A DNA stretch of 64,000 nt from Naegleria gruberi. Lineage: Eukaryota. Location: assembly GCA_000004985.1 (NCBI GenBank), contig GG738898.1. One strand, written 5' to 3'. Below the pieces are notes generated by a model that worked only from the letters and a program-made list of their open reading frames with translations, was not told the origin of the DNA and searched no databases. The translations under genes and the position numbers were made by a program. This document shows, piece by piece, positions 36,193-54,945 of this stretch. Each line of letters starts with the position of its first letter. Position 1 is the first letter of the stretch.

Positions 36193-36558
36193 NNNNNNNN
36201 NNNNNNNNNNNNNNNNNNNNNNNNNNNNNNNNNNNNNNNNNNNNNNNNNNNNNNNNNNNNNNNNNNNNNNNNNNNNNNNNNNNNNNNNNNNNNNNNNNNN
36301 NNNNNNNNNNNNNNNNNNNNNNNNNNNNNNNNNNNNNNNNNNNNNNNNNNNNNNNNNNNNNNNNNNNNNNNNNNNNNNNNNNNNNNNNNNNNNNNNNNNN
36401 NNNNNNNNNNNNNNNNNNNNNNNNNNNNNNNNNNNNNNNNNNNNNNNNNNNNNNNNNNNNNNNNNNNNNNNNNNNNNNNNNNNNNNNNNNNNNNNNNNNN
36501 NNNNNNNNNNNNNNNNNNNNNNNNNNNNNNNNNNNNNNNNNNNNNNNNNNNNNNNNNN
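36193..36558. other. assembly gap (366 N)
   Basis: Run of n characters. A 39-bp island at 36559..36597 separates it from the next gap. Confidence 1.
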
Positions 36559-36597
36559 TCTGTAAACATGACACTTGTGTGAGTATTGACCATCCCT

Positions 36598-36802
36598 NNN
36601 NNNNNNNNNNNNNNNNNNNNNNNNNNNNNNNNNNNNNNNNNNNNNNNNNNNNNNNNNNNNNNNNNNNNNNNNNNNNNNNNNNNNNNNNNNNNNNNNNNNN
36701 NNNNNNNNNNNNNNNNNNNNNNNNNNNNNNNNNNNNNNNNNNNNNNNNNNNNNNNNNNNNNNNNNNNNNNNNNNNNNNNNNNNNNNNNNNNNNNNNNNNN
36801 NN
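36598..36802. other. assembly gap (205 N)
   Basis: Run of n characters. Confidence 1.
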
Positions 36803-38524: not shown

Positions 38525-38881
38525 TCACTGATTACCACTACTCATCAATGAACTATTAGCACTACTACTACTACTGCTGCCACTATCCACTGACACCACT
38601 GACACCATTGCACTACTACTACTACTACTGCTGCTTGTTATCATTGAAGTGGAAGATTGATTTGGATTGATAATTGGCCGCACAACCATAGCTCCCATTA
38701 CAATTTGAGATTTTGGAGGTTTGTAATTAATTGTTGGCAAATGACTGATTGGTGTTAAGGGAGTAAATGCAATGCAATTTCCCTTTTCCAAATGAGATTT
38801 GAAATCAATCATGTTATCGACCAAGTAAACATGCTTCTTGCATGCTTTACAATATTTGGTAGAGTTTGATTTGGATTTCAA
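38525..38881 (-). CDS. Ser-rich ORF with C-x5-C...C-x2-C zinc-ribbon-like motif; status uncertain (separate small gene or terminal exon of the giant gene)
   Basis: Frame is open from the TAA that ends the post-gap remnant of the giant ORF (ENCEWLYECPLKFEKLKSKSNSTKYCKACKKHVYLVDN...SSSSSSSS...). The track start is a TTG; the first ATG lies at DNMIDF. Coding-like composition. Confidence 0.25.
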   Translation of the reverse strand: MKSKSNSTKYCKACKKHVYLVDNMIDFKSHLEKGNCIAFTPLTPISHLPTINYKPPKSQIVMGAMVVRPIINPNQSSTSMITSSSSSSSSAMVSVVSVDSGSSSSSSANSSLMSSGNQ

Positions 38882-38994: not shown

Positions 38995-41900
38995 TTAAAT
39001 GTTGAATTCTCCTTCTAAGAATGTGTAAATAATTNNNNNNNNNNNNNNNNNNNNNNNNNNNNNNNNNNNNNNNNNNNNNNNNNNNNNNNNNNNNNNNNNN
39101 NNNNNNNNNNNNNNNNNNNNNNNNNNNNNNNNNNNNNNNNNNNNNNNNNNNNNNNNNNNNNNNNNNNNNNNNNNNNNNNNNNNNNNNNNNNNNNNNNNNN
39201 NNNNNNNNNNNNNNNNNNNNNNNNNNNNNNNNNNNNNNNNNNNNNNNNNNNNNNNNNNNNNNNNNNNNNNNNNNNNNNNNNNNNNNNNNNNNNNNNNNNN
39301 NNNNNNNNNNNNNNNNNNNNNNNNNNNNNNNNNNNNNNNNNNNNNNNNNNNNNNNNNNNNNNNNNNNNNNNNNNNNNNNNNNNNNNNNNNNNNNNNNNNN
39401 NNNNNNNNNNNNNNNNNNNNNNNNNNNNNNNNNNNNNNNNNNNNNNNNNNNNNNNNNNNNNNNNNNNNNNNNNNNNNNNNNNNNNNNNNNNNNNNNNNNN
39501 NNNNNNNNNNNNNNNNNNNNNNNNNNNNNNNNNNNNNNNNNNNNNGAGTGTGGATAGGAACAGGATTTTCATAGTGATGATGTTCCATATGTAATTCCAC
39601 ATCTGCTGATGAAATTATTGGCTTGTGATGAGAATCATCTTCCACTTGTGGAGTTTGTGGAATTTGTTCCTCTCCTTCCCATGCTCGTTTCACATTGGCA
39701 ACAAATGTTGTTGGAATACCAGTTGCTTGTTGCATAGTACCATCCACTTTGAGTGTTCTTGTTGATGATTGCTTCTCAAAGAGGTTACTAATATTGTACG
39801 TAGTGGTGGTTGTGGTGGCTGTGGTAGCTGTGGTGGCAGGTCTTTCTGAAATACAGTCTTGTGCATTCAAACTTTCCAAATTAACTTTAGAATTAATTGG
39901 TAGGATACTATTGATAGAGTATTTGAGTGATCTTGAAGTTGCTGGTGTTGATGGTTTAGTTGATGATTGACTGTAAATAGAACTAGATGGTTGAATAACA
40001 TGATGGTCAATCAAGTCTATGGAATCAACAACTTGTTGTGGAACAACCGAATTCTTCTTAATCAGGTCCAAATTCAATTCCTTGATAGAAATGACAGAAT
40101 TTGCAGTGGATGGCCTCTTGTCTTCCTCTTCAGTTGGACGAGTTGGTGTAGATGGTATTTCTTGATCGGGATTATATTCCTTTCTAGGAATGTAAAAATT
40201 TCCTTCAATATCTTCATGACTTGGAACAGCAATTTCACTTTCGTCACCATAATGTTTCTTTGAAGGAAGCTTAATCTTTTGTGGTTTGAGGTCATCATGA
40301 GTAACATAGGACAAGTGACGAAGAAGTTTTGGAATAGGACGTGGTCGAATAGGTCTGACCGGTCCAGAACCTTCCTTTGGGTTGGTGGAACCATGCTTAT
40401 TCTTTGAATTCTTGGTATTTCTCTTTCTCATAAAGAAACATACAAGGAAAAGCAACAAGAACATGCAGGACAATCCACATACTATGGCTGCTGAAAACAC
40501 AGCTGCTGCAACGTACATGTACGAGTAGTGAGAAACTGTGGCAGTCTGGATGACAAAGACATTGGTAAAGTGAGAACATTTACAATAGGCATGTGTATCA
40601 TTCTTCAGTTGGAGGGAACATGAGTAGGTAACTTCAGTAGTTCCATCTAAAAAGTCTGCACATGCATAACTGTCTGTTTCCTCTGTAAAATCGAATGAAC
40701 TTGCTGTACTAGATGTAAGAGTACTTGTAGTATTGATGGGAATAATGTAAATGAGGCCATCTTCCTTCATAGGAACACTCAAGTCCGTGAATTCAACCGA
40801 GACAATTGGAGAAATAAGACTTGACGTTCTAGTTGTCGAGGCAGAAAGTTTTTGTGAAAGTTTTAGCTTTCTATCAAGAGAAAACACATCATCTGTTACT
40901 GTCATTACGTACGTGAATGGTTTTTTAACAAGTGATGATACCTTATTTTCAAAAACAAAGAAATTGTCTGGAATTAGAACAGAAGTAGATCTTTCAGAGT
41001 CAGTAATGATATTCTCATAATCATAAATGGTACTTTTACCCATAATCATGGAGAAGAATGGTCCTTTGGTTCTAGTAATAGTACGAGAAATGTACATGTC
41101 TCTGGTTTGAAGATTTGACGACATTTTGAGTGCGGATAATAATTTTCTAGAATTGGAAGTTTGGTCAGTAATGTACTGTCTTTCCATAATGTAGTCATGG
41201 ACAGATTCAACACAAGCATTCAATAGGTTTTGCACACCTGGAGATAATTTGATTTTTCCAGAATCTTGGGCAGTTGTTAAAAACCTATTCAGGGTGCATA
41301 ATGCCTCTGAAATTGTCTTGGAATTGAGGAAATGATAATTAACAAGGATTGAATCAACAGCAAATGAGAGTAGAGAAATGTAATCCTCATTCAAACCATC
41401 AGTCTTATTCATACTTGTAGTAATATCATTTAGGACAGTTAATTTGCTCTTTTGGATGTTAGAAAAATCTCTAATGGAGGTTTCACAATGAGTACCAATA
41501 TATCCATCAGCACACTTGCATTCGCCTGAAACTTCTACACCACTTATACATTGAAGATACTTGGTTGATCTTTCATTTATGGAACGCTTAAATGATAAAT
41601 CTCCAAGGGTTTCTTTCAATAGAACCGAATCTGTTCTAGAAGTAGAGGCAGATTGATAGATGCTCTTACTGAAATGACCTTCGGACATGTAGGTTGCACT
41701 CACCCCTGACCAAGTCGATACAATTTCTTGAACTTGTTCAATGTCTGTTACTGTTGGTTTGGAAATTGTAATATTCTTCTCCATAAGAGTTGTACCGCCT
41801 GTGACAGTATTGATAATTTCAAAGAAACAAGTCACTGTATCACCATAGAATGGTGCAGGTAGTTTGGAGGCAAACACTTCACCAAGGTTGTACAGATAAA

Positions 41901-44900
41901 TCTTGGATCCTGATCTATCATCCAAAAAGCCATACTTAAAGTCAATATTTTCATCTGGATTTTTACAATTGGTACAATAGAAATCAAATTCAGTTTCAAG
42001 TGCAATACCTGTTGATGGATTAATGGAGCAATCACATGGTTTTGGAATGGAAGCCATTGAGAATGCATACGCTGTTCTCACAGTAACACCAGAAGAAGTA
42101 TCTCTTGCTGCAATAGTAAGAGTATTGGTTGAACCCTGCACAAGCAAGGTTGTATCTATGACTCCTGTCACCATTTCTGCAGCACCAACTTGCTGTACTA
42201 TGAATTTAGACTTGTCAAGAATCATTCCATTGAGAACCCATGTGGTTTCTGTGGAGGAAGTTATTTCTGATGAGATTAAAGTTTGAACGGAAAGTTTTTG
42301 CCCAGGAATCAAGTATTGAGTAGTAGGATTAATATCAAGGATATTCACCACAGGTGGAATATTATTAAAGTAAACAATGGTGGACTTTTCCACAATTCTG
42401 TCAGTTTTGGAGACTCTTAATCGAAGTTGAAGTGATGAAGGAACAATCATGCTTCCAAACAGGGCTGAATCAATGGTGAATAGCTTGGCTTTTGTGCTTG
42501 AAATGGATCGAAGCAAACTGAGCAAATCAGGATTGCCACTATCTAAGCAACTCCATGTCCATGTTTCCACTGATTCATAATTGATGGCATCCTCTGGATC
42601 ACTGTATTCCACTTTAATGACTGTATATGTCTTTCTGGATTCTAATTGAACAAGATTTAGATAGAGGTCTGGAGATTTTGTTGTCAATGTCACAGTAGAG
42701 GTTGAGGAGAGTGTTGGATTTGAAGCATAGTAAGCTTTCACTGTGAATGAGTAGCTCACACTTCCAAAAGTTCTCAATCTAGAAATGTACAAATTGTTAA
42801 ACTTGTCTACAGTGAATTCTATGGCAGGCCCTGATGTTTGAGCCCAATCAATTGTAACAGATTCTGATGCACATGTTGACTGAGTAACAACCTTCTTGAT
42901 TGAAGAAGGAAAATCTGTTGTGAGCTTTTCAACCAAGGATGGAGCCATCACTAAAGGAAGAGGTTTCTCAGACTTGACAAATTCCCTCGAATATACATAA
43001 GGACTAATAGTATTCAATGAAGGGCTATGGACCTGAAGCATCATTCTATATCTTCCAGCTGGAAGTGATGCTTCCAACTTGATAATAGCTTGATTGGGAT
43101 AACTATTAGATACAATTTCAAAGGTAGTTGCATCGAGTAAGGACCAATAATAGCTCAATTGCTTTCCATCATTGGAGTGGCTCAGAGTGCCATCTACACT
43201 AATTTCATCACACGAACTAAACATGTCTATATTGGCCATACTAATGAAGGCAGTTGGGGTGTTATTCTGTAAGGGCATGACAACTGGAATGGAAATATAT
43301 TCCTCTCTGGTTGTTAAGTTATTGTATCTATCGTAGACGAGTGTATTCAATTTGATTGATTGACCACTTTCTAATGTATAATCAATTGAACCAAAAGTGA
43401 TCATGAAAGCATAGCTTGCCTTATTCAAATATTTACATTTCACATTAGAGAAGGAACCATAAACATTTCTGGACCTATCTTCTGAACTGATAAGATTCGA
43501 GCACGGAATTTCCACACCAGTAAATGCTGTTGGGAGGTTGAGTTTAAATACTAATCCAGAAAAATCGGAAAGAATAGTGGCAGGTCCTTCAATCTTGGTT
43601 GCACAATTAATTCCATAATAGCCATTCAAACAAGTGTCACATAAGGAGCCATTCCAGAATCCACGTTCAAAACTTGAATAACATTTGCAAGTCAAATCAG
43701 ATTTACATTCTCCATTATTGAAACAATTATTTGCACAAGTACTATTTACAACAGTTGTTGGAGTACTGCTTGAATTATTGCTAGTATTGCTAGTTGCATT
43801 GTTTGAAATCGGTGGAACTATAACCTCGTTACTTGTGTTGTTTGTTGGAGTGGTTGAGTTTTCATTGGGAATGGTAATGTTTGGATGTAATTGTTCTGAA
43901 CAATTAAATCCCAAGTATCCATCCTTACATTTACAAGTGTCAAAATCAGTACACTGACCATTACCAGAACATACTAACTCAGATGTGGATTTAACAGAAA
44001 AGCAAGTTGTGAAATTACAGTTTGGTCCAAAATATGGCAAGTTACAGTCACAATGATTGAAAGATTCACACCTACCACGGGATTGACAAACAAGGGATTC
44101 ATTACTCAATACACCAAAACAACTTGTCACAGAGCAATCACTTCCAAAGCTATTTGGTTCACATTCACAAGTGTCCAAGTCTGAACAAACTCCTCTTTGA
44201 GAACAAACAGTCATATCTAACTTGGATTTACCGTAGCAATAAAAGTGAGAGCAATCTGGGCCAGAGTATCCTTTGTTGCAGACGCACGTATCATGACTTG
44301 TACAACTACCACGGCCAGTACACGTCTCAGAGCTATTGGACGATTTTGAAAAACATGTAGTCAACTCGCAATTCATTCCAAAATAGTTTTCAGCACATTC
44401 ACATTGGTCGAACTCAACACATTTTCCTCTGGAATTACACACAGAAGAGGAATTTGATGGAATATTGTGGCATAGAGGAATTTCACAATTAGATCCAGTA
44501 TATGAAGAATTGCAAGAGCAATGATTTAAGGTGGAACAATTTCCTCTTGAATTGCATACATTTGGATCATGAGAAGAAATTCCAAAACATGTAGTGTACT
44601 GACACCAAGGTCCTGCATACTCTGATGGACAATGGCACTCATCAACCTTTGAGCAATTTCCAACAGAATTACATACTTTGGAAGAGTTTGAGGCAATTCC
44701 AAAACATGTAGCCAACTCGCAATTTCTTCCTGTATACTTTTCATTACATGTACAATTATCTGGTGAATGGCAAGGGCCGTGATAGCTACAAACTGAAGAA
44801 TTACTATCCTTAATACCAAAGCATAGAGAACCAAAGCAATTATCACCATAAGAGCCGTGGTTACAAATACATGTATTCGAATCGGTGCATGAACCATGTC

Positions 44901-47900: not shown

Positions 47901-50900
47901 TTCCTCTTCTGTGGCATACCTCACTGTGATTGGAGAGAATTCCAAAACACAATGTCATTTGACAGAATTCTCCAAAATAATTTGAGGAACAATTGCACAT
48001 ATCATTAGCTGTACACGATCCATAACCATTGCAAACATTAGTGTCATTACTAAAAGTTCCATTACATTTAGAAATTTCACACTCATATCCAATGTAATGC
48101 TCAAAACAAGAACATGAATCTTTTTGAGAACAATTTCCTCTTCCACTACAAACAAAACTATTATTCATATTACTCACACCAAAGCATTCGAAATATTCAC
48201 ATTCAGAACCCGAATATCCAGGTTGGCAAGAACAATTATTGAAATCATTGCACTGCCCAAATCCCTTACAAACGAGTGAGGAGTTTTGTTGAATACCAAA
48301 GCAGGTTACAAACTCACAATATTTTCCGTAATACCCTTCTTTGCATTGGCATGTTTCTGGTGCAATGCAAGTTCCTCTTTCTCCATGACATTCTCCTATC
48401 GTACCATTACAAAGAGGTATTTCACACTCTGATCCTCCGTAGCCCAAAGTTGAATTGCAAGAACAGTTATTGGATGATATGCATTTACCTCGTTCATTAC
48501 AAACAAGTGGAGAGCTGTATGAATAATTTCCACACACATAGTCAGGCGCAATTTCCAAAATCGTAGTATTGGTACTGTTTGAAGGTTCTGAAATATTAAC
48601 CGAAAATGAACAATTCCCACACAAAGTTTGATTCCAATAAGTTTCATTGAGGGGATTGCTATTATTCGAAACTGTAATGTTTTGCTGCGTATTGGTACTG
48701 TTCATAGTAATGGTTTCATTTGAGAATAGAGTGGAAGAATTTAAAGTATAGTTTTCTGAGGGTGTACTATTGAAACCTAAAGTAGTACTATTGGTTTCCA
48801 CACATGATGAACAATTAGCTGTTGTATTGGAAGAAATACTCTCATTATAGATTGTAGAGTTGGATATTTCTAATGTGCTACTACTGGTTTGATTGTTAGA
48901 GATTTGATTATCAGAATTGTCTTCATGTTTGGTTTGATTGTTAGAATGGCTGGTTTGATTTTCACTTGAGGAGGAAAAATTCGATAGAATATTTGTGGAA
49001 TTATTTGTGAGAGTTTCATTCAAGGTTTGGTTGAATGTTTGAGAATTATCTTCCAATTCTCTTCCAAATTTGTGCGCTGAGTTGTTCAAAGTGCAATTAC
49101 TTCCCACTGGACAGTTTTCTAAAGCTGTCGCATTTTCCAGCAGAGAGCTAGTTGTCTCATTGAGTGATGAGGTATTAAGAGTGGTGGAGTTCTGAGAGAA
49201 TACAGTTCCATTCACTGTGTTATTTGACTGGAAAGAAGTGTTCCACGAAGCAATTTCACTACTGGAATTAGTTGTGCTCTCAAAAGTAGTGTTGAACGTG
49301 AACGTATGATTCGACAGAATTCCAGTGCTGTTCTCCAGACCTGTTTGATTGAAAATAATTGATGAGTTCATGCTGTTATTACAATCGGGAGATGTTACAT
49401 TGAGAGAGGTATTGATCCAAATCGTGCTGTTTCCTCCTTCATACGTATCAGAACTGTTGTAATGTTGAAGGATTGTTCCATTTGAGGTACTAGCATTATA
49501 ATTTTCACTGCTTGTAGTATTTTCCCAAACGGATGAATTGGAAAAGATAGTCGATTCGTTAGAGTAGGAAGTGAAATTCGATTGTGTGCCATTCCCCATG
49601 AACCATTCAGTTGAATTAGTAACAGATGTACTGTTCTTGTCTAAGGTTTCATTTGTACCATAAAGACAAGTATCACATGTGATGTTCAACACTGTGTAAT
49701 TGGAAAAGTTTGAAGAGTTACTAGTCAAACTCTGATTGGTGGCCAATTCGGTGTTGTTAAGACGAACATTTGAAAAATTTCCTGTAGAATTGCTTCCTAC
49801 TTCTAAGGAATTGTTGGTTACATTATTTGTACTGGTAGAATTATCAGAAATGGTGGTATTAGTATTAGTTCCAGTAGAATTATCCGAATCAGTTCCGTTT
49901 GTTTGACCAACAAAGTTAGTTCCATTATTTGATTCAGTAGTATTACTTGAAGAGGTGCCATTTGATGGAGTATTATTAATAGTTGAATTAGTGTTTGTTT
50001 CATTAGTATAAATAGTTCCATTATCCAATTCAGTAGAATTAGAAGAGAAAGGAATGGTTTCATTGAACGAAGTATGTTCGTTTGTAAGATTGTGATTTGT
50101 TATATTACTTTTGGTATTTTCTAACTTGGTTTGATTTACCATATTTGTAGCATTGAGCTGTGTATTGTTTGCTAAATTCGATGAACTATTAAGGGACAAG
50201 CTATTTGTCTCATTTGAAAGGATTGTGGAATTTATGACAGTTTGATTTTCTCCTTGAAATATTTCAGTTACTGTCCCATTATTGAATGGAGAGGTACTAT
50301 TCTCATAACTTTGGTTGTAAAAGCTTTGATTAGTGACAACGGAATAGTTTACAGTGGTGTGATTAAAGTCGTGAGTTATGTTGCCATGTACTACACTACT
50401 GTTGCTCACTGAATTATTCTCAGCCCTTTCAGTTATATTTAACACTGTAGAATTTCCTTCAGATTCACTAACTTTTCCTTTTGTTGGTATTGAATCATTA
50501 AGATTTTCACTGCCATTCTTTGAAATAGGATTACTTGAATTTGTAAGTTCCGTATTGTTTTCTGCTATTAAAGAAGTATTAGAAATACTGTGGTTTGTTT
50601 TTTCATGGTTTGTATTATTCAAAATGGTGCCATTAATTGTTTCATTCAAAGATATAATAGAGCTGTTACTACTTGTAAAGTTATGCATTTCTGTATCATT
50701 AAGCTGAGATCTGGTAATATTATTATAAATAGACTCATTAACAAATGATATCTGTGTTGCATTAAGAGATACAGAATTGTTAGACAATAGAGTATTATTC
50801 TCTTCGGAGTATCTCGTAAAGTTAGCATGGGTTTGATTAAGATTAGTACTATTTATCAGTGTGGAATTATTTTCATTCACTGTTCTATTCAATTCAGAAT

Positions 50901-53900
50901 GGTTATGTGGAGGTGTTTCAGTGCTGTTTTCTACAACTTTGTTTGAACTATTGCTGAATGTTGAATTCCACTGGTCAGTGACATTGAACGAAGTATTTGA
51001 AAGTGGATTTGTTGAATTGAGTAGACTTGAATTTGATACAGTACTTTGGTTGCCAAGGGAGGAGCTGTTCCCAAAGGTTTCTGTTCTGTTTACAAATTCG
51101 TTTGTGTTGTTATCCAAAGAGTTTGATCCTGTTATGTTACAGTTTGTATTATTTAAAGCAGCTGTAGTATTACTATTCTCTGTTGCATTAGCAAATCCGA
51201 AAGTGCCATTAGATAAGGAATTGTTGAAAGTTGCAGTATAACCCAAGTTTAGGGAATTGTTTGAATTTGTATTGGTGATGTTTCCTAATTGTGTACTTTC
51301 TGTGTAATTTAAATCATTCGTAGAATTAGAAGAAGTGAAATTCTGATTTGTACTGTTATTGGTATGTTCATTACTTGTATGGTTTGTTGTTGTGTTATTT
51401 TCCACCAATGAATTATTTAGTGCTGTAGTGTGATTTTGAACAAAAGTCTCATTGTTCAAGGTTTGTGTGTTATTTACACCAAATAAAGTCTCATTATTCC
51501 CTGATTTTCCTTCCAAAGTTTGATTCCTGGTTTCGTTTAAAAAACTTGAATTAGTGATAGCAGTATTATTTTCCAATACTGAAGATTGATTGTGTAACTT
51601 TGTGTTATTCTCAAATAGAGTGGTATTAATTGTCTGAGAATCGTCGATCATAGACGTTGCGTTAGTGTTAATTGTGAGATTCTCATTATTAACTGTAGAG
51701 TTTGTTTCAATACTGGGTACAGATGAGCTATTCTGATTCTCAGTTTGGTTGTACCTACTATGAAGAGACTCGTTCCCTATCATTGTTTTGTTTTCATTTA
51801 TCAGGGTGTCATTATTTACAAGAATTGTAGAACTAATAGATCCATTGAGGTACGTATCATTGAGTTGAAAGGTAGATTCATTAAGGAAGTTTAGACTTGA
51901 ATTCAAATTTGTATAGTTCACAGATATTGAAAGTGTTTGATTTTGTGATTTGATATTGACAAAAATGGAACTGTCATTCCTCAGAGTTTCGTTCAATGTT
52001 ACATTACCAACTGTGGTGACTTTGGTAGAATTTTCTGAAGAATTTCCATTCAAGAAACCGGTTTGGTTACTTATTGCCGTTCCATTTTCGGCAGGCATTG
52101 TTTGCTTTTCGAAAGTTGTAGTGTTGTTTTCAGCAAAACTATTATTTTCGGGCCTTGTGGTATTTTGAGTGGAAACTGTAATAGACATATTGCTAGAAAT
52201 TTCTCTGGTGATGTTGGAGTTTGTCATATTAGGATTAGTATTTGCCAAGTTATTAACCACTGAGCCGTTTTCCTGCAACGTTTGATTTCTTGTTTCCAAG
52301 CTGTCATCAGATCTAGATGTCGAGTTACTAGCAATACTGGTATTTGTTATTGAAATAGTTGTGACATTACTTTGTTCAGTGTTGTTCCAATTGGTTGAGT
52401 TCATTGTTTTGTTGCTTTCAAGGTTTTCTAGTGTTAAGTTCTTTGAAGACGTTTCATTAAGAAAAACGGTTTTGTTTGTAATAGTATCTTGTGAAGAATT
52501 ACCTCCGTTAGTATTATTGCTAGTGGTGATATTGAAAGATTCTGTGCGATTGATAAATAAATCAGAAGTGTTGTTTAGCACAAGCAATGAACTGTTAAGG
52601 TTAGTGGAGTTCTCAAGTGTTATGGTTGAATTGATTGAGATTGTTGAATCATCCAAAACAAACTGGTTTGTATTATTCAAATCTGTTGAATTACTTGTTT
52701 CATTCACCAATAATACGGAGGTATTAGAATAGCTATTGGAGAGTGTGTTATTCTCAATAGCATCAGTTGTATTTAAGCCTGTTGAATTCACAATTGATAA
52801 ACCTGATTCGTTAGAATGGTTTGAATAGTTATCAAACTTTGAGCTGTTGCTCCCGGTTAATGAAAAGTTGGCTACATCATTAAAAGTTGAATTATTAACA
52901 AGACCATGTGATTGACCCGAGGGACCGCTAATTGTTTGGTTTTCTGGGAAATGACTAGTGTTGAGCCTTGTTGTATAATTTGAATCAAGAGTGTTATTAG
53001 AAATAATGTCTGAACTAGCATTATTGGAAATTCTTGTACTATTCCCAGTGGTCATGGTACAGTTATTTGAATCATTAGAAGTAATATTTGAAACAGTACT
53101 ATTTGAAATTGTTGAATTGTTCACTGTTTCATTTCCTTGCTTAGTAGCTATGGTTGCATTCAAATCAACAGAGGAGTTGGATGGAACACTTGGAATATTA
53201 GATTCGTTTGAAAAATTTGTAATATTATCAAACCTAGAGCTGTTTCTCCCATTCAAAGTTGAGTTTGTAAGGTTATTAAATGTTGAATTCTCGAATGTCG
53301 ATAGGTTACTCCCACTCAGTGACGAGTTGGTAACATCTTTTAAGGTTGAATTATTAACTGAAGTAATGTTGGTTTCATTCTCAATACCAAATGATTGATT
53401 TGAGGGACTACCACTATTTGATAATGTTTGGTTTTCGGAGCTATAACTCGTGTTCACACTAGTTGCATTTTTTGAATCAACAGTGTTATTATTAGTCATG
53501 TTTGAACTAGTATTAGATAGTATTGTATTGTTAAAAGTTTCATTTCCTTTTTGTATAACAGTTGAATTCAATTCTAAAGTAGTATAGTATATACTTGTAT
53601 CATTTTGTTCAATAGATGAATTATTTGATAAGACGGTCTCATTTAGAATAACAGATCGATTATTCCAAGTACTGTCACTTGCATTTGTTTCATTTAGTGT
53701 GACAGTTACGTTATATGTCAGACTTGTATTGAAACTGGTCTCATTCTTAATTTGTCCATAAGAATTGTTCATTGAGGATGTTTCATTTGGATGAATTAAA
53801 GTCTCATTAACATTTACATCTGATTGGTTTGATGCTGTGTAAGTACTATTCCTTCCTGGACCAGTAGAGTTATTGAAAGTCGTCTCGTTGTTAGATGTTG

Positions 53901-54945
53901 AATTGTTTGATGTCAATTCACTTTCGTTGAATGTTGTATTTGAAGATGATCCAGTATCGTTTTGTCCATTACTGCTAACATTTAAACTTGTTTGGTTTGT
54001 TAAAGAAGTATTGGAATACATAGAAGAGTTGGAAACTGGTTCGTTAGTAAAGGGTGTATGTTGATCGGTTGCATTGTCCAGTAATGTCGAGTTATTAACG
54101 ACGTACGAGGTAGTATTGCTCTCAAAATAGGATGTATTGCTCTCTACATTTAGCTCCGTAGTGCCATTACTGACTTGTGAATCAGTTGTTTGGTTATCTT
54201 CTCTAAATATTCCAGTACTATTTGTTGAACTAGTATTATTTACAAGACTACTATTATCGCTAGAAATAGTAGCATTATCAAAACTAAAGTTCTTGGCGGA
54301 TGAGGTATTAACTGCCTCTGTGATTGTGGAAGTATTACATGCCAAACCGGTGTATCCATCTGTACAATTGCAAGTATTAAAATCAACACAGGTTCCATAT
54401 CCACTGCAAGTTGATGAGCTGTTCGATTCCACATCAAAACAGTATGTATATTGACAATGTGTTCCAAAGAACTGTTCCTCACATGTACATGACGACGTTT
54501 CATTACTGAGCCAAGAACAGTTACCATGTCCTGAACATGTGATCATGGTACTGTTATTATACTCACTTTCATTCCATGTCTTGGCTATCGAAGAACACTC
54601 CACATACTCGCACTCTTCTCCATAAAATCCCAACTGGCATTCACATTCAGTGTCATTTGTACAATTTCCTCGTCCAGAGCATATATTTATGCTAAGATTA
54701 TCATCAGTGAATAGCCTTAATTTGCAACTGTTGTGTCCCGATGATGATGTAGCAATTACTTTCGATAAAATTGCTCTCTGAATTATTAAGCATTGTATCA
54801 CCAATATTATCATGATCATAATATTTGTTATTGTTGTTATTCGCGTTTTCCATTTTACTCGCCTCCACACTTTGAATTTCTCATCCAAAAAGGTTGCTCC
54901 TTCACACGTATGATGATGAGAGTGAAGATGAACACGAATCGGCAT
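38995..54945 (-). CDS. giant single-pass surface protein (~5,300 aa): signal sequence, 3-4 EGF, ~1,500-aa N-glycan-sequon stalk, two arrays of tenascin-type EGF repeats (>55), REJ/GAIN-like region with GPS motif, TM helix, long cytoplasmic tail (3' end uncertain because of gap)
   Basis: Single ~16-kb open frame with no candidate introns. In-frame ATGs lie at 54945 and 54819 (MIMIILVIQCLIIQRAILS, signal-peptide-like). EGF consensus C.G.G.C....C.C...Y.G..C recurs from ~49600 to ~43900. The GPS-like motif is ...YSCSLQLKNDTHAYCKCSHFTNVFVIQ at ~40545..40600. TM helix YMYVAAAVFSAAIVCGLSCMFLLLFLVCFF at ~40440..40530 is followed by RKRNTKNSK stop-transfer. The tail runs into gap 39035..39545. Confidence 0.85.
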   Translation of the reverse strand: MPIRVHLHSHHHTCEGATFLDEKFKVWRRVKWKTRITTITNIMIMIILVIQCLIIQRAILSKVIATSSSGHNSCKLRLFTDDNLSINICSGRGNCTNDTECECQLGFYGEECEYVECSSIAKTWNESEYNNSTMITCSGHGNCSWLSNETSSCTCEEQFFGTHCQYTYCFDVESNSSSTCSGYGTCVDFNTCNCTDGYTGLACNTSTITEAVNTSSAKNFSFDNATISSDNSSLVNNTSSTNSTGIFREDNQTTDSQVSNGTTELNVESNTSYFESNTTSYVVNNSTLLDNATDQHTPFTNEPVSNSSMYSNTSLTNQTSLNVSSNGQNDTGSSSNTTFNESELTSNNSTSNNETTFNNSTGPGRNSTYTASNQSDVNVNETLIHPNETSSMNNSYGQIKNETSFNTSLTYNVTVTLNETNASDSTWNNRSVILNETVLSNNSSIEQNDTSIYYTTLELNSTVIQKGNETFNNTILSNTSSNMTNNNTVDSKNATSVNTSYSSENQTLSNSGSPSNQSFGIENETNITSVNNSTLKDVTNSSLSGSNLSTFENSTFNNLTNSTLNGRNSSRFDNITNFSNESNIPSVPSNSSVDLNATIATKQGNETVNNSTISNSTVSNITSNDSNNCTMTTGNSTRISNNASSDIISNNTLDSNYTTRLNTSHFPENQTISGPSGQSHGLVNNSTFNDVANFSLTGSNSSKFDNYSNHSNESGLSIVNSTGLNTTDAIENNTLSNSYSNTSVLLVNETSNSTDLNNTNQFVLDDSTISINSTITLENSTNLNSSLLVLNNTSDLFINRTESFNITTSNNTNGGNSSQDTITNKTVFLNETSSKNLTLENLESNKTMNSTNWNNTEQSNVTTISITNTSIASNSTSRSDDSLETRNQTLQENGSVVNNLANTNPNMTNSNITREISSNMSITVSTQNTTRPENNSFAENNTTTFEKQTMPAENGTAISNQTGFLNGNSSENSTKVTTVGNVTLNETLRNDSSIFVNIKSQNQTLSISVNYTNLNSSLNFLNESTFQLNDTYLNGSISSTILVNNDTLINENKTMIGNESLHSRYNQTENQNSSSVPSIETNSTVNNENLTINTNATSMIDDSQTINTTLFENNTKLHNQSSVLENNTAITNSSFLNETRNQTLEGKSGNNETLFGVNNTQTLNNETFVQNHTTALNNSLVENNTTTNHTSNEHTNNSTNQNFTSSNSTNDLNYTESTQLGNITNTNSNNSLNLGYTATFNNSLSNGTFGFANATENSNTTAALNNTNCNITGSNSLDNNTNEFVNRTETFGNSSSLGNQSTVSNSSLLNSTNPLSNTSFNVTDQWNSTFSNSSNKVVENSTETPPHNHSELNRTVNENNSTLINSTNLNQTHANFTRYSEENNTLLSNNSVSLNATQISFVNESIYNNITRSQLNDTEMHNFTSSNSSIISLNETINGTILNNTNHEKTNHSISNTSLIAENNTELTNSSNPISKNGSENLNDSIPTKGKVSESEGNSTVLNITERAENNSVSNSSVVHGNITHDFNHTTVNYSVVTNQSFYNQSYENSTSPFNNGTVTEIFQGENQTVINSTILSNETNSLSLNSSSNLANNTQLNATNMVNQTKLENTKSNITNHNLTNEHTSFNETIPFSSNSTELDNGTIYTNETNTNSTINNTPSNGTSSSNTTESNNGTNFVGQTNGTDSDNSTGTNTNTTISDNSTSTNNVTNNSLEVGSNSTGNFSNVRLNNTELATNQSLTSNSSNFSNYTVLNITCDTCLYGTNETLDKNSTSVTNSTEWFMGNGTQSNFTSYSNESTIFSNSSVWENTTSSENYNASTSNGTILQHYNSSDTYEGGNSTIWINTSLNVTSPDCNNSMNSSIIFNQTGLENSTGILSNHTFTFNTTFESTTNSSSEIASWNTSFQSNNTVNGTVFSQNSTTLNTSSLNETTSSLLENATALENCPVGSNCTLNNSAHKFGRELEDNSQTFNQTLNETLTNNSTNILSNFSSSSENQTSHSNNQTKHEDNSDNQISNNQTSSSTLEISNSTIYNESISSNTTANCSSCVETNSTTLGFNSTPSENYTLNSSTLFSNETITMNSTNTQQNITVSNNSNPLNETYWNQTLCGNCSFSVNISEPSNSTNTTILEIAPDYVCGNYSYSSPLVCNERGKCISSNNCSCNSTLGYGGSECEIPLCNGTIGECHGERGTCIAPETCQCKEGYYGKYCEFVTCFGIQQNSSLVCKGFGQCNDFNNCSCQPGYSGSECEYFECFGVSNMNNSFVCSGRGNCSQKDSCSCFEHYIGYECEISKCNGTFSNDTNVCNGYGSCTANDMCNCSSNYFGEFCQMTLCFGILSNHSEVCHRRGICWPFNNCSCEEHYYGQECDITKCGNIFSNDSLVCSTHGKCSSFENCTCSDKYYGNHCSNYDCFGVSNFNSSVCSGHGSCTSPDTCQCGANRLGLNCSITTCNGTLGNVSSVCSSHGTCTDYNICKCFLNYDGPFCEINSCHGIPSNDSNVCSGNGKCVDFNSCQCGNRFGGENCEKLKTDIFAGYKVICSKHVISSIGREYQLLTASMVLELQEYSYFPYLPNKNASIVLTSEPIGQMLVDEMTKSIDLIQNMACTQYLTSTNVSSTLIIRNGAVLCFLTNWFVKPTQNIVIIGTEPVVIKVPSLYYANSSITFLNCASHRNLYWVVGSSSQVWGSSTKPIAGTVISATKDDYLYVHGTVAGSIWALNSYVILESVIFEPPKSFDPFEPYLSNSCNFTKCYGINSNDNSTCSGNGQCIDYNSCKCNYGAYGTDCSLYICNGMLSNNESFVCSGRGSCIANEVCECNSGYFGEYCEETSCYGISSSNSTFVCSGQGSCTSPDTCKCNIGYSGMDCSVVQCNGTLSNDTTVCNSHGSCIAPDTCFCKTGYLGQWCELTTCSGVFSNSKYVCSGRGSCISYNNCQCNHTYYGSTCSDYKCYDIPYYSNKTCSGRGTCVDIDTCVCSNNYYGNNCSISKCYGKLGNDTSVCSSRGTCVGFNTCSCLNNYMGSQCEITSCYSFLSNISSVCSGKGICGEFNNCSCLQGNFGQNCSEHYCFGIKNTSPKVCTGYGTCVDTDTCACSSNSLGSRCEIPICNGTTGNSSLVCSSHGNCTSPNTCTCQDHYSGSRCEITTCGSQLSTSPSVCNSHGYCSSFNNCICSANYYGSTCQVSSCYGTLSNSSSVCSSHGTCSNFNNCTCKSGYSGSKCELFKCNGTLSTDTKVCSGRGTCIDIETCSCLKDYFGKHCEVTQCNGVLSNVSSVCSSHGQCISADKCSCSAHYFGTNCEKSYCAGIASNDSYVCSAHGSCKDYNLCECKSGYYGSNCENYKCFGVMNNQSSVCSGHGSCTDSNTCICNHGSYGDNCFGSLCFGIKDSNSSVCSYHGPCHSPDNCTCNEKYTGRNCELATCFGIASNSSKVCNSVGNCSKVDECHCPSEYAGPWCQYTTCFGISSHDPNVCNSRGNCSTLNHCSCNSSYTGSNCEIPLCHNIPSNSSSVCNSRGKCVEFDQCECAENYFGMNCELTTCFSKSSNSSETCTGRGSCTSHDTCVCNKGYSGPDCSHFYCYGKSKLDMTVCSQRGVCSDLDTCECEPNSFGSDCSVTSCFGVLSNESLVCQSRGRCESFNHCDCNLPYFGPNCNFTTCFSVKSTSELVCSGNGQCTDFDTCKCKDGYLGFNCSEQLHPNITIPNENSTTPTNNTSNEVIVPPISNNATSNTSNNSSSTPTTVVNSTCANNCFNNGECKSDLTCKCYSSFERGFWNGSLCDTCLNGYYGINCATKIEGPATILSDFSGLVFKLNLPTAFTGVEIPCSNLISSEDRSRNVYGSFSNVKCKYLNKASYAFMITFGSIDYTLESGQSIKLNTLVYDRYNNLTTREEYISIPVVMPLQNNTPTAFISMANIDMFSSCDEISVDGTLSHSNDGKQLSYYWSLLDATTFEIVSNSYPNQAIIKLEASLPAGRYRMMLQVHSPSLNTISPYVYSREFVKSEKPLPLVMAPSLVEKLTTDFPSSIKKVVTQSTCASESVTIDWAQTSGPAIEFTVDKFNNLYISRLRTFGSVSYSFTVKAYYASNPTLSSTSTVTLTTKSPDLYLNLVQLESRKTYTVIKVEYSDPEDAINYESVETWTWSCLDSGNPDLLSLLRSISSTKAKLFTIDSALFGSMIVPSSLQLRLRVSKTDRIVEKSTIVYFNNIPPVVNILDINPTTQYLIPGQKLSVQTLISSEITSSTETTWVLNGMILDKSKFIVQQVGAAEMVTGVIDTTLLVQGSTNTLTIAARDTSSGVTVRTAYAFSMASIPKPCDCSINPSTGIALETEFDFYCTNCKNPDENIDFKYGFLDDRSGSKIYLYNLGEVFASKLPAPFYGDTVTCFFEIINTVTGGTTLMEKNITISKPTVTDIEQVQEIVSTWSGVSATYMSEGHFSKSIYQSASTSRTDSVLLKETLGDLSFKRSINERSTKYLQCISGVEVSGECKCADGYIGTHCETSIRDFSNIQKSKLTVLNDITTSMNKTDGLNEDYISLLSFAVDSILVNYHFLNSKTISEALCTLNRFLTTAQDSGKIKLSPGVQNLLNACVESVHDYIMERQYITDQTSNSRKLLSALKMSSNLQTRDMYISRTITRTKGPFFSMIMGKSTIYDYENIITDSERSTSVLIPDNFFVFENKVSSLVKKPFTYVMTVTDDVFSLDRKLKLSQKLSASTTRTSSLISPIVSVEFTDLSVPMKEDGLIYIIPINTTSTLTSSTASSFDFTEETDSYACADFLDGTTEVTYSCSLQLKNDTHAYCKCSHFTNVFVIQTATVSHYSYMYVAAAVFSAAIVCGLSCMFLLLFLVCFFMRKRNTKNSKNKHGSTNPKEGSGPVRPIRPRPIPKLLRHLSYVTHDDLKPQKIKLPSKKHYGDESEIAVPSHEDIEGNFYIPRKEYNPDQEIPSTPTRPTEEEDKRPSTANSVISIKELNLDLIKKNSVVPQQVVDSIDLIDHHVIQPSSSIYSQSSTKPSTPATSRSLKYSINSILPINSKVNLESLNAQDCISERPATTATTATTTTTTYNISNLFEKQSSTRTLKVDGTMQQATGIPTTFVANVKRAWEGEEQIPQTPQVEDDSHHKPIISSADVELHMEHHHYENPVPIHTXXXXXXXXXXXXXXXXXXXXXXXXXXXXXXXXXXXXXXXXXXXXXXXXXXXXXXXXXXXXXXXXXXXXXXXXXXXXXXXXXXXXXXXXXXXXXXXXXXXXXXXXXXXXXXXXXXXXXXXXXXXXXXXXXXXXXXXXXXXXXXXXXXXXXXXXXXXXXXXXXXXXXXXXXXXIIYTFLEGEFNI
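39035..39545. other. assembly gap (511 N) in cytoplasmic-tail region of giant gene
   Basis: Run of n characters, flanked upstream by a Thr-rich low-complexity tract (TTATTATTTTTTY). Confidence 1.
43900..49600 (-). repeat. two tandem arrays of tenascin-type EGF-like repeat units (~31-33 aa each) inside giant gene, separated by a ~230-aa non-repeat insert (~46700..47390)
   Basis: The same 6-Cys unit recurs: CxGxxSNxSxVCSGxGxCxxxxxCxCxxxYxGxxC. Confidence 0.7.
49650..54300 (-). repeat. low-complexity coding tract: Asn/Ser/Thr-rich stalk saturated with N-x-S/T sequons (inside giant gene)
   Basis: About 4.6 kb in which nearly every 4-6 codons forms N-x-S/T (e.g. NTSSTNSTGIFREDNQTTDSQVSNGTTELNVESNTSYFESNTTSYVVNNSTLLDNAT...). 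Codons are dominated by AAT/ACT/AGT/TCA. Confidence 0.7.

What the first reader, a model, noticed from the sequence alone, without database searches (positions are those of the whole stretch)
38995..54945. 16-kb intron-less ORF encoding a ~5,300-aa single-pass surface protein with EGF arrays, a glycan stalk and a GPS motif
One open frame spans a quarter of the window. Reading it gives signal sequence, 3-4 EGF, a ~1,500-aa sequon-saturated stalk, ~25 EGF repeats, a ~230-aa insert, ~30 more EGF repeats, a Thr/Asn linker, a ~1,000-aa Cys-containing REJ/GAIN-like region, a GPS-like motif, one TM helix and a cytoplasmic tail of more than 350 aa. It combines metazoan adhesion-receptor and polycystin/REJ parts in a protist, with a tenascin-like repeat unit.
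Basis: partly seen in the sequence, partly recalled or inferred. Interest (0 to 1): 0.75.

Follow-up and report, generated by a model that had tools for sequence, protein, structure and literature searches.

The report
Giant Naegleria EGF–REJ–GAIN surface glycoprotein
This is a real gene, about 15.4 kb with no visible intron, in the amoeba Naegleria gruberi; it encodes a surface glycoprotein of more than 5,100 residues whose membrane-proximal end is the same REJ–GAIN/GPS cassette found in animal polycystin-1 and adhesion receptors, here attached to a single membrane helix.

Summary
The ORF is real: 54945→39546 on the minus strand, 5,133 codons with no stop. Its annotated end (38995) is an artefact, because the ORF runs into a 511-N gap. 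The organism is Naegleria gruberi.

- EGF arrays are very significant.
- Pfam REJ scores 66 bits.
- The GPS motif reads CKCSH-F-T.
- One TM helix follows, then a cytoplasmic tail of at least 292 aa.

- The EGF arrays hold 10 + 24 repeats of 39 aa, not about 25 + 30.
- The sequon-rich region is about 1,930 aa with 303 N-x-S/T sites, 2.2 times the composition expectation. It sits at the distal end, so it is not a membrane-proximal stalk.
- The 222-aa "insert" is a DUF3494/ice-binding-like β-solenoid. It recurs in paralogues.

The gene belongs to a large uncharacterised N. gruberi family (41–46 % identity). Relatives occur in Trimastix, Stygiella and, weakly, vertebrate PKD1L1. GAIN domains in protists and single-TM REJ proteins (sea-urchin SpREJ1) are already known. 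I therefore rate this a new variant of a known kind, with function (adhesion or mechanosensing) inferred only.

The parts
54748..54846 (-). N-terminal hydrophobic segment (aa 34-66): signal peptide or signal anchor. Met43/Met45 are plausible alternative starts.
   Evidence: Kyte-Doolittle scan: one of only two segments above 1.6. Paralogues have N-terminal hydrophobic segments at residues 1-30.
54331..54726 (-). Distal head: 3 EGF repeats (aa 74-205, 18 Cys)
   Evidence: Pfam EGF_2 8.6e-14 and EGF_Teneurin 1.8e-11; Cys count
48535..54330 (-). Sequon-saturated Asn/Ser/Thr region (aa 206-2137, ~1,930 aa, 303 N-x-S/T sites, only 11 Cys)
   Evidence: Over aa 206-2100: 297 sequons against 136±8.6 in 1,000 shuffles, 73 % of Asn sit in sequons, median spacing 6 aa. 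Per-100-aa profile. Totals.
47371..48534 (-). EGF array 1: 10 repeats of 39 aa (aa 2138-2525, 60 Cys)
   Evidence: Regex count and 39-aa spacing; Pfam EGF_2 5.1e-34 and EGF_TEN 1.6e-28
46705..47370 (-). DUF3494 / ice-binding-like β-solenoid module (aa 2526-2747)
   Evidence: AF2 model pLDDT 76.6, pTM 0.80. The top 30 Foldseek PDB hits are all DUF3494 ice-binding proteins, E from 1.6e-5, TM 0.5-0.6. Pfam PF11999 scores 23.7 bits, below the 28.7 cutoff, and is matched by 4 of 9 copies. The PDB profile hit 7bwx has E 1.1e-3. The module recurs 5 times in NAEGRDRAFT_51207.
43894..46704 (-). EGF array 2: 24 repeats of 39 aa (aa 2748-3684, 144 Cys)
   Evidence: Pfam EGF_2 1.1e-90; DNA copies are spaced at multiples of 117 nt and are only 60-80 % identical
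43738..43893 (-). Thr/Asn/Ser/Pro linker (aa 3685-3736, 9 sequons, no Cys)
   Evidence: Read from the translation; counts
43597..43737 (-). Cys-rich EGF-like module (aa 3737-3783, 8 Cys)
   Evidence: Read from the translation; no significant Pfam hit
41551..43596 (-). β-rich PKD-like + REJ region (aa 3784-4465); the Pfam REJ match covers aa 4054-4409 (41719..42786)
   Evidence: PF02010 REJ E 2.4e-18, 66.4 bits against cutoff 25; PKD_4 only 13.2 bits. Paralogues and distant relatives carry K319L-like PKD plus REJ at the same position.
41482..41550 (-). Single EGF between REJ and GAIN (aa 4466-4488)
   Evidence: Weak EGF_laminin and EGF_TEN hits. The AF2 model shows small β-hairpins at model residues 30-48. 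The Cys and Gly are invariant across 9 paralogues. The metagenomic multi-TM relative P0029 has an EGF at the same position.
40528..41481 (-). GAIN domain (aa 4489-4806): helical subdomain A (~4491-4616) and β-sandwich subdomain B (~4623-4808)
40537..40662 (-). GPS motif (aa 4762-4803), ...C-x-C-S-H4792-F4793-T4794-NVFVIQ; putative cleavage between F4793 and T4794
   Evidence: phmmer aligns it residue for residue with the ADGRL3 GPS (E 1.2e-3 for the query alone; 2.9e-5 with the profile of close paralogues only). Pfam GPS is sub-threshold at 15.2 bits against 22.5. Alignment with relatives that carry C-x-C-x-HLT-x-F.
40423..40527 (-). Single transmembrane helix (aa 4807-4841), followed by RKRNTKNSKNK
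   Evidence: Hydropathy peak 2.8 and the only internal hydrophobic segment; modelled as a helix
39547..40422 (-). Cytoplasmic tail, sequenced part (aa 4842-5133, 292 aa): Ser/Thr/Pro-rich, with a PVRPIRPRPIP motif and no recognisable domain
   Evidence: Translation. No Pfam domain and no PLAT. No similarity to paralogue tails.
39035..39545 (.). Assembly gap (511 N) that hides the true C-terminus and stop codon

Best explanation
The interval holds one real gene of Naegleria gruberi, very probably a single exon. It encodes a giant type-I plasma-membrane glycoprotein.

Domain order from the tip to the membrane:
1. A 3-EGF head.
2. A ~1,930-aa region in which nearly every sixth residue is an N-glycosylation sequon.
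3. 10 EGF repeats.
4. A DUF3494-type β-solenoid.
5. 24 EGF repeats.
6. A short glycosylated linker.
7. A conserved juxtamembrane chassis of PKD-like/REJ, one EGF and a GAIN domain with its GPS.
8. One TM helix and a disordered Ser/Thr/Pro-rich cytoplasmic tail.

Shown here: the ORF, the domains, the GAIN fold, the topology signals, and membership of a large N. gruberi paralogue family that has relatives in other excavate lineages.

Inferred:
- The distal region is densely N-glycosylated and extended, forming a glycocalyx 'bottle-brush' that could reach hundreds of nanometres.
- The EGF/β-solenoid rod is the ligand- or substrate-binding part.
- The REJ–GAIN cassette acts as it does in polycystin-1, SpREJ and adhesion GPCRs. 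It is a force-bearing juxtamembrane module that may autoproteolyse at H4792-F-↓T4794, leaving a non-covalently held ectodomain that can be shed under tension.

There is no 7TM or 11TM body, so any signal would have to go through the tail or a partner protein. The most likely role is adhesion or mechanosensing at the cell surface (substrate, prey or cell contact).
For: Organism:
- The neighbouring ORF 6058..8052 is identical to XP_002672408.1 (NAEGRDRAFT_72607) of N. gruberi.

The ORF is real coding sequence:
- It has no stop for 5,133 codons.
- The EGF units have a strict 117-nt period, yet copies are only 60-80 % identical at the DNA level, so this is not an assembly artefact.
- No AT-rich island or intron-like GT..AG candidate lies inside the ORF. 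The neighbouring ACAD10-like gene has a 52-nt, ~16 % GC intron.

Domains:
- EGF and REJ by Pfam.
- The GPS aligns with the ADGRL3 GPS.
- DUF3494 fold.

Topology:
- Only two hydrophobic segments exist, with basic residues after the TM.
- 380 of 388 sequons lie N-terminal to the REJ region, and only 1 lies in the tail.
- Sequons are enriched 2.2-fold over composition, z≈19.

Family:
- 60 homologues were found. The best are N. gruberi 'predicted proteins' at 41-46 % identity over ~1,090 aa, with the same EGF…REJ–EGF–GAIN–1TM layout, up to 4,968 aa and 60 EGF.
- Distant members in Trimastix marina (4,917 aa, 36 EGF, 1 TM), Stygiella incarcerata and metagenomes carry a canonical C-x-C-x-HLT-x-F GPS. 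The weakest listed hit is gar PKD1L1.

Precedents:
- SpREJ1 is a heavily glycosylated single-TM protein with EGF, REJ and GPS (PMC1934368).
- GAIN domains occur in Dictyostelium and Tetrahymena (PMC3321182).
Against: - No transcript, protein or localisation data exist. Glycan occupancy, surface location, cleavage and function are all inference.
- Pfam GPS is below threshold (15.2 against 22.5 bits).
- H-X-S/T is necessary but not sufficient for cleavage: BAI2 has HLS and is uncleaved (PMC13062082).
- The seven closest paralogues have K/Q/S/R/T in place of the His. The subfamily therefore generally looks non-cleaving, and the GAIN domain may be purely structural.
- The C-terminus is hidden in the gap, so further domains or TM helices cannot be strictly excluded.
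- The gene's own product was not found in the protein collections. The best hit is 46 % identical, so it appears to be unannotated or mis-modelled. That also means there is no independent gene model.
Confidence: 0.75

Rival explanations
1. The protein is a passive structural coat (glycocalyx, cyst-wall or mucin-like) protein. In this reading the GAIN domain does not cleave and is only a rigid juxtamembrane spacer, and the protein has no sensing or signalling role.
For: - The closest paralogues lack the catalytic His.
- The tail has no recognisable signalling domain and is not conserved among paralogues.
- The sequon load is enormous.
- H-X-S/T alone does not guarantee cleavage.
Against: - This gene, unlike its closest paralogues, retains H-F-T in exact register with cleaved GPS motifs.
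- The REJ–EGF–GAIN chassis is conserved from Naegleria to Trimastix and Stygiella and to multi-TM relatives. That argues for more than a spacer.
- A 292-aa or longer cytoplasmic tail is long for a mere anchor.
Confidence: 0.2
2. The protein is a bona fide polycystin-1-type receptor or channel subunit, and its remaining TM helices (PLAT plus a 10-TM/TRP-like domain) lie beyond the assembly gap.
For: - REJ plus GAIN/GPS is the PKD1-family hallmark.
- Some relatives in the hit list have 8-9 predicted TM helices (P0029, P0031, P0050) and gar PKD1L1 is among the hits.
- The C-terminus is unknown.
Against: - In PKD1 proteins the PLAT domain immediately follows TM1 (PMC1934368). Here 292 hydrophilic, low-complexity residues follow TM1 with no PLAT hit.
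- All close paralogues end 80-185 aa after their single TM.
- DNA beyond the gap (37.8-39.0 kb, minus strand) has no long ORF and no multi-TM ORF.
Confidence: 0.03
3. The 16-kb ORF is an artefact: a chimera of several genes or exons fused by mis-assembly, or a read-through of unspliced in-frame introns.
For: - The scaffold has six N-gaps in 64 kb.
- No matching gene model was found in the protein collections.
- No transcript evidence is available.
Against: - There are no gaps inside 39546..54945.
- There are no near-identical repeats that could mislead assembly.
- There is exactly one signal segment, at the N-terminus, and one TM near the C-terminus.
- The same module order (EGF – DUF3494 – EGF – REJ – EGF – GAIN – TM) occurs in an independent paralogue of 4,968 aa.
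- There is no intron-like AT-rich island.
Confidence: 0.02

Closest known systems
Sea-urchin receptor for egg jelly 1 (SpREJ1) and the wider PKD1/REJ family
   Same: - A large, heavily glycosylated single-pass sperm-surface protein with EGF, a REJ domain and a GPS just before the TM (PMC1934368).
- The REJ domain here is significant by Pfam, and GAIN/GPS precedes the only TM.
   Different: - The Naegleria protein has no C-type lectin domains, and no PLAT or 11-TM body as in polycystin-1.
- It is about 3.5 times longer.
- It carries 37 teneurin/tenascin-type EGFs, a DUF3494 module, a 1,930-aa sequon region, and an extra EGF between REJ and GAIN.
- Sequence relationship to animal PKD1 proteins is weak (PKD1L1 E 7.7e-4).
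Adhesion GPCRs (latrophilin/ADGRL, BAI/ADGRB, CELSR): the GAIN domain
   Same: - The GPS aligns as C-x-C-x-H-x-T with ~15 residues between the cleavage site and the TM helix.
- An adhesive EGF-rich ectodomain lies upstream.
   Different: - There is no 7TM domain, so the tethered-agonist (Stachel) mechanism has no receiver.
- The −1 residue is Phe rather than Leu.
- Pfam GPS is below threshold.
- A single-pass GAIN isoform does have a precedent, the 1TM Cirl variant in Drosophila (PMC13197933).
Uncharacterised N. gruberi paralogues (NAEGRDRAFT_71231, _75960, _76139, _51207, _71188, _53311 and others)
   Same: - 41-46 % identity across the whole PKD/REJ–EGF–GAIN–TM chassis, with E down to 0.
- The same 39-aa EGF units are present.
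- The DUF3494 module is shared with _51207 (5 copies), _76139, _75960 and _71188.
   Different: - Only this gene has the ~1,930-aa sequon region and the long 292+ aa tail.
- Only this gene keeps His at the GPS −2 position.
DUF3494 / IBP-1 ice-binding proteins (e.g. FfIBP 4nu2, TisAFP 3vn3)
   Same: The predicted fold is the same: a right-handed β-solenoid with one long flanking α-helix. The match covers the full domain, and 30 of the top 30 PDB hits are of this type.
   Different: - Here the domain is an internal module between EGF arrays of a eukaryotic membrane protein from a mesophilic amoeba.
- The sequence match is sub-threshold.
- Ice binding is not implied.
Teneurin/tenascin EGF arrays
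   Same: Six-Cys EGF units with a C-x-C-x(5)-Y/F-x-G-x(2)-C core. Pfam EGF_TEN and EGF_Teneurin match at 1e-75.
   Different: - The period is 39 aa, with a long C1–C2 loop of 12 residues that usually carries a sequon (for the translation, for the spacing).
- Pfam EGF_Tenascin itself scores only 15.4 bits against a cutoff of 25.

Membership tests
PKD1 / REJ family (polycystin-1, PKDREJ, SpREJ) | REJ domain | tested here: met
   Pfam PF02010: 66.4 bits against cutoff 25, E 2.4e-18, covering profile positions 45-427 of 452
PKD1 / REJ family (polycystin-1, PKDREJ, SpREJ) | GPS/GAIN immediately upstream of the first TM | tested here: met
   [not shown]
PKD1 / REJ family (polycystin-1, PKDREJ, SpREJ) | PLAT/LH2 domain after TM1 | tested here: not met
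   No PLAT hit in the 292 aa after the TM at E≤0.1. Sequence beyond the gap is unknown.
PKD1 / REJ family (polycystin-1, PKDREJ, SpREJ) | 11 TM helices / channel-like C-terminal domain (SpREJ1/2 are exceptions with 1-2 TM) | tested here: not met
   There is one TM only in aa 67-5133. Close paralogues are all single-TM.
PKD1 / REJ family (polycystin-1, PKDREJ, SpREJ) | PKD (Ig-like) repeats upstream of REJ | tested here: inconclusive
   PKD_4 scores 13.2 bits against cutoff 27. K319L-like PKD is significant in relatives P0049, P0043 and P0029.
Adhesion GPCR (class B2) | GAIN domain with GPS | tested here: met
Adhesion GPCR (class B2) | Seven-transmembrane domain following the GAIN domain | tested here: not met
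   A single hydrophobic segment follows the GPS, then a hydrophilic tail
GAIN autoproteolytic domains | Catalytic H-X-S/T at the GPS | tested here: met
   H4792-F-T4794 is in register with HL|T of ADGRL3. The consensus is H-X-S/T according to PMC13062082.
GAIN autoproteolytic domains | Actual self-cleavage | not testable with these tools
   This needs expression and a Western blot with H4792A/T4794A controls. The motif is not sufficient, and paralogues lack the His.
EGF-like (teneurin/tenascin type) | Six-Cys EGF signature in tandem | tested here: met
   EGF_2 1.1e-90, EGF_Teneurin 1.5e-75, EGF_TEN 2.9e-75. There are 3+10+24 units with 6 Cys each.
DUF3494 / ice-binding-like (PF11999) | Sequence match above the Pfam gathering score | tested here: not met
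   23.7 bits against 28.7. Four of 9 family copies match, best E 1.4e-6.
DUF3494 / ice-binding-like (PF11999) | β-solenoid plus a single long α-helix | tested here: met
   AF2 pTM 0.80. Foldseek top 30 hits are all DUF3494 IBPs, TM 0.5-0.6.
N. gruberi EGF–REJ–GAIN–1TM paralogue family | Full-length similarity of the PKD/REJ–EGF–GAIN–TM chassis | tested here: met
   Seven hits have E≤1e-208. Identity is 41-46 %, and four of the seven span ~1,075-1,090 of the 1,101 query residues. All those looked up are N. gruberi.

The most novel reading that the evidence does not exclude
The PKD/REJ–EGF–GAIN cassette on a single TM helix may be an ancient, pan-eukaryotic 'tension-release' module. It would predate both adhesion GPCRs and 11-TM polycystins. 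It is present in Heterolobosea, Jakobida, Preaxostyla and animals.

In Naegleria it has been expanded into a family of giant modular adhesins. This gene is the one close-subfamily member that still has the H-x-T catalytic site. It would therefore be a cleavable, sheddable half-micrometre glycocalyx sensor whose N-terminal fragment is released under force, independent of any 7TM receiver.
Probability: 0.25. Interest if true: 0.65.

Novelty: new variant of a known kind. Interest (0 to 1): 0.5.

Why it matters
REJ and GAIN/GPS are the disease-relevant juxtamembrane modules of polycystin-1 and adhesion GPCRs, and their mechanical and proteolytic function is still debated.

A free-living amoeba that carries dozens of REJ–GAIN proteins on a single TM helix shows that the cassette works without a 7TM or 11TM body. 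Relatives in Trimastix and Stygiella push its origin towards the root of eukaryotes.

The family also offers a natural experiment: one member has H-x-T and its closest paralogues have lost the His. This lets autoproteolysis be separated from the structural role.

The 303-sequon region is an extreme case for studying oligosaccharyltransferase capacity and glycocalyx building in protists.

In practical terms, the gene seems to be missing from the published N. gruberi protein set and is truncated by an assembly gap.

Tried and rejected
- The search for homologous proteins was run three times: with the REJ-to-tail region, with the GAIN region, and with the DUF3494 alignment. It returned nothing each time. 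The last query alignment contained proteins that are themselves in the collection, so these negatives are uninformative. The exhaustive HMMER search supplied the family instead.
- The Foldseek afdb50 library was unavailable.
- Exact-sequence look-ups aimed at recovering the annotated gene models around the ORF all failed. Seven of eight neighbouring ORFs are not in the collection as read from the first ATG. The DOCK ORF and paralogue P0005 are not on record. I therefore could not see whether JGI called a model for this gene.
- Tandem Repeats Finder finds no array in the EGF region because the copies are too diverged. The period was obtained from protein regex matches and seed-extension repeats.
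- The tail and the sequon region have no detectable homologues among the 60 family members.
- Literature searches for Naegleria together with REJ, polycystin or GAIN found no description of this family.
- I considered and rejected three readings: a polycystin-1-type 11-TM protein (no PLAT, hydrophilic tail), an adhesion GPCR (no 7TM), and an assembly chimera (no internal gaps or near-identical repeats; the same module order occurs in a paralogue).
Full report

The ORF listing reports one ORF at 38995..54945 on the minus strand, 5,316 codons. Apart from two short ORFs of 195 and 159 aa on the same strand in other frames, nothing of 150 aa or more overlaps it on either strand.

The translation and the raw sequence show that the 3' end is not real. 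Positions 39035..39545 are 511 N. They are translated as X, and the terminal 'IIYTFLEGEFNI*' lies in an arbitrary frame.

The genuine uninterrupted coding sequence is 54945..39546, which is 5,133 codons. An in-frame TAA sits three codons upstream of the first ATG (read). A stop-free stretch of 15.4 kb in ~36 % GC DNA cannot be chance.

**2. Organism and context**

A neighbouring ORF (6058..8052, a PAS–adenylate cyclase) is identical to XP_002672408.1 / NAEGRDRAFT_72607 of Naegleria gruberi, on a 310-kb scaffold. The other neighbours are ordinary eukaryotic genes: Ku80, DOCK, F-box/LRR proteins and an ACAD10-like APH+acyl-CoA dehydrogenase.

The ACAD10-like gene contains a canonical 52-nt GT..AG intron with ~16 % GC. 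Inside the giant ORF no 51-nt window drops below 19.6 % GC, and no intron-like GT..AG candidate with low GC exists.

The EGF units keep an unbroken 117-nt period. The sequence therefore supports a single exon. Transcript evidence was not available.

**3. Anatomy (amino-acid numbering from the first ATG; window coordinates are listed under 'parts')**

*Hydrophobic segments.* Only two exist: aa 34-66, which is a signal peptide or anchor (Met43/45 are plausible starts), and aa 4807-4841.

*N-terminal head.* aa 74-205 holds three EGFs.

*Sequon-rich region.* aa 206-2137 is 21 % Asn, 18 % Ser and 16 % Thr.
- Over aa 206-2100 there are 297 N-x-S/T sequons, against 136±8.6 in 1,000 composition-preserving shuffles.
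- 73 % of all Asn lie in sequons. Median spacing is 6 residues, and the largest sequon-free gap is 18.
- The whole region has 303 sequons and 11 Cys.

*EGF arrays.*
- aa 2138-2525 holds exactly 10 EGF units and aa 2748-3684 exactly 24. Each unit is 39 aa with 6 Cys.
- Pfam scores are EGF_2 1e-90 and EGF_Teneurin/EGF_TEN 1e-75.
- At the DNA level the copies are only 60-80 % identical. Tandem Repeats Finder does not see them. They are old diverged repeats, not collapsed or expanded assembly.

*The 222-aa insert (aa 2526-2747).*
- It is a recurring module, with five copies in NAEGRDRAFT_51207 and others in three further paralogues.
- An AF2 model built on nine copies has pTM 0.80.
- Its best 30 PDB matches are all DUF3494 ice-binding-type β-solenoids.
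- Pfam Ice_binding is just below threshold but is hit by 4 of 9 copies.

*Linker and chassis.*
- A 52-aa Thr/Asn/Ser/Pro linker and a Cys-rich EGF-like module come next.
- aa 3784-4465 is β-rich and contains a significant REJ domain (66.4 bits against a cutoff of 25).
- One EGF (aa 4466-4488) follows.

*GAIN domain (aa 4489-4806).*
- The AF2 model (21-sequence alignment, pLDDT 82.5, pTM 0.75) shows a helical bundle followed by a β-sandwich that runs straight into the TM helix.
- Foldseek finds BAI2, BAI3, latrophilin-1, CELSR1 and CD97 GAIN domains at E 1e-12 to 1e-5, over 286-350 alignment columns.

*GPS motif.*
- The GPS reads …C-K-C-S-H4792-F-T4794-NVFVIQTATVSH, and the TM follows immediately.
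- phmmer aligns it in exact register with the ADGRL3 GPS at E 1.2e-3 for the single sequence.
- A profile of the nine closest Naegleria sequences only gives E 2.9e-5. The 21-member family profile gives E 9.8e-13.
- Pfam GPS alone is sub-threshold at 15.2 against 22.5 bits.

*Cytoplasmic tail.* After the TM come RKRNTKNSKNK and 292 sequenced residues of Ser/Thr/Pro-rich tail. The tail has no Pfam domain, in particular no PLAT, and no similarity to paralogue tails.

**4. Family**

An exhaustive HMMER scan of 1.84 billion representatives with aa 3760-4860 gave 60 hits.
- The best seven have E 0 to 1e-208 and 41-46 % identity. The six of these that were looked up, and the next ones checked, are all N. 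gruberi 'predicted proteins' on other scaffolds.
- They share the layout: variable N-terminal modules, then PKD-like/REJ, one EGF, GAIN, one TM and a short tail. Sizes reach 4,968 aa with 60 EGFs.
- Variable modules include DUF3494 and NHL propellers (P0013). In the jakobid Stygiella they include VWD.
- More distant members come from Trimastix marina (4,917 aa, 36 EGF, REJ 204 bits, single TM), from Stygiella incarcerata and from metagenomic eukaryote contigs. Some of the metagenomic ones have 8-9 predicted TM helices. The weakest listed hit is gar PKD1L1.
- No hit exceeds 46 % identity. The product of this very gene therefore appears to be absent from the collections. It is probably unannotated or mis-modelled because of the gap. 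I could not check the JGI models directly.

**5. The catalytic site**

Distant relatives have the canonical C-x-C-x-H-L-T-x-F. The seven closest paralogues have K, Q, S, R, R, K and T in place of His, and one also has Gly in place of Thr. The window gene is the only member of that close subfamily with H-x-T.

The literature gives H-X-S/T as the consensus but shows it is not sufficient, since BAI2 carries HLS and is uncleaved (PMC13062082). Cleavage is therefore possible for this protein but not predictable.

**6. Mechanism**

Shown: a type-I topology signal pattern, the module order, the GAIN fold, and extreme sequon enrichment confined to the ectodomain. Of 388 sequons, 380 lie N-terminal to the REJ region, 7 lie in the REJ–GAIN region and 1 lies in the tail.

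Inferred from established knowledge of PKD1/SpREJ proteins and adhesion GPCRs:
- The distal Asn-rich region is densely N-glycosylated and extended.
- The EGF/β-solenoid rod presents binding surfaces.
- REJ–GAIN is the force-bearing juxtamembrane unit and may self-cleave and hold the ectodomain non-covalently.

With one TM there is no receiver for a tethered agonist. Output would have to be shedding, or signalling through the tail or a partner. The sequon region is N-terminal and distal, so 'stalk' is a misnomer.

**7. Comparison with known systems**

The closest described architecture is sea-urchin SpREJ1, a heavily glycosylated single-TM protein with EGF, REJ and GPS (PMC1934368).

GAIN domains in protists were reported for Dictyostelium and Tetrahymena (PMC3321182). 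A 1TM GAIN isoform exists for Drosophila Cirl (PMC13197933).

The protein fails the PLAT/11-TM criteria of polycystin-1 and the 7TM criterion of adhesion GPCRs. It should be filed as a REJ–GAIN single-pass protein, not as either of those.

I found no paper describing this Naegleria family.

**8. Verdict**

The numbers needed correcting, one module was newly identified, and the ORF end is a gap artefact.

It is a new architectural variant, and apparently an unannotated member, of a known kind of protein. Function remains inferred. Interest is moderate at 0.5: useful for the evolution and mechanics of REJ/GAIN modules, but not categorically new.

Noticed in passing
window 55565..58121 (-), intron 56530..56581: This is an ACAD10/11-like gene with an APH kinase-like domain plus an acyl-CoA dehydrogenase domain. 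It is split by one canonical 52-nt GT..AG intron of ~16 % GC. Splicing restores the frame and gives an 834-aa product with the motif APEVFNCNAPDTGNMEVL.
   Followed up: yes
family alignment, GPS column (proteins P0002-P0008 against window aa 4792): The seven closest N. gruberi paralogues have replaced the GPS catalytic His with K/Q/S/R/T. The window gene and the distant relatives (Trimastix, Stygiella, metagenomic sequences) keep it. This is a natural cleavable versus non-cleavable series.
   Followed up: partly
P0005 = NAEGRDRAFT_51207 (4,968 aa), residues 104-343, 889-1089, 1656-1851, 2246-2479, 2670-2912: This paralogue carries five copies of the DUF3494-like β-solenoid interspersed with ~60 EGF repeats. 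Other family members swap in NHL propellers (NAEGRDRAFT_53247) or VWD (Stygiella). The chassis is fixed and the N-terminal modules are shuffled.
   Followed up: partly
window 35613..36190 (+), continuing into gaps 36193..36558 and 36598..36802: This ORF has bacterial-type Ig/cadherin-like repeats (Big_9 4.5e-22, Cadherin_5 5e-15). It is another likely surface adhesin gene, broken by two assembly gaps.
   Followed up: no
window 36803..37835 (-): This ORF has a very weak dCache_1 match (16 bits against cutoff 45). It runs into the same gaps on the opposite strand from the cadherin-like ORF, so one of the two overlapping readings through the gaps must be spurious.
   Followed up: no
window 6058..8052 (-): This PAS–PAS–adenylate/guanylate cyclase ORF is identical to NAEGRDRAFT_72607. 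It was the only one of eight neighbouring ORFs whose first-ATG reading exactly matches a deposited protein.
   Followed up: yes
whole window: There are six N-gaps: 5207-5408, 21634-22266, 36193-36558, 36598-36802, 39035-39545 and 62851-62900. Several 'ORFs' in the ORF listing are read-throughs of these gaps, for example 19938..23372, 35613..36848 and 36132..37835.
   Followed up: partly
tool behaviour: the search for homologous proteins returned no hit even for an alignment containing proteins that are in its own collection.
   Followed up: yes
window 43894..48534, EGF units: The long C1–C2 loop of the 39-aa EGF unit (C-x-G-x3-N-x-S/T-x-V-C) usually carries its own N-glycosylation sequon. There are 53 sequons in the 34 array repeats, so even the EGF rod is predicted to be glycan-coated.
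   Followed up: partly
window 38525..38881 (-): A short ORF just beyond the gap has a Cys-rich start (KYCKACKKHVY…) and a poly-Ser tail. It has no Pfam hit. It is unclear whether it is a separate small gene or unrelated to the giant ORF's missing C-terminus.
   Followed up: no
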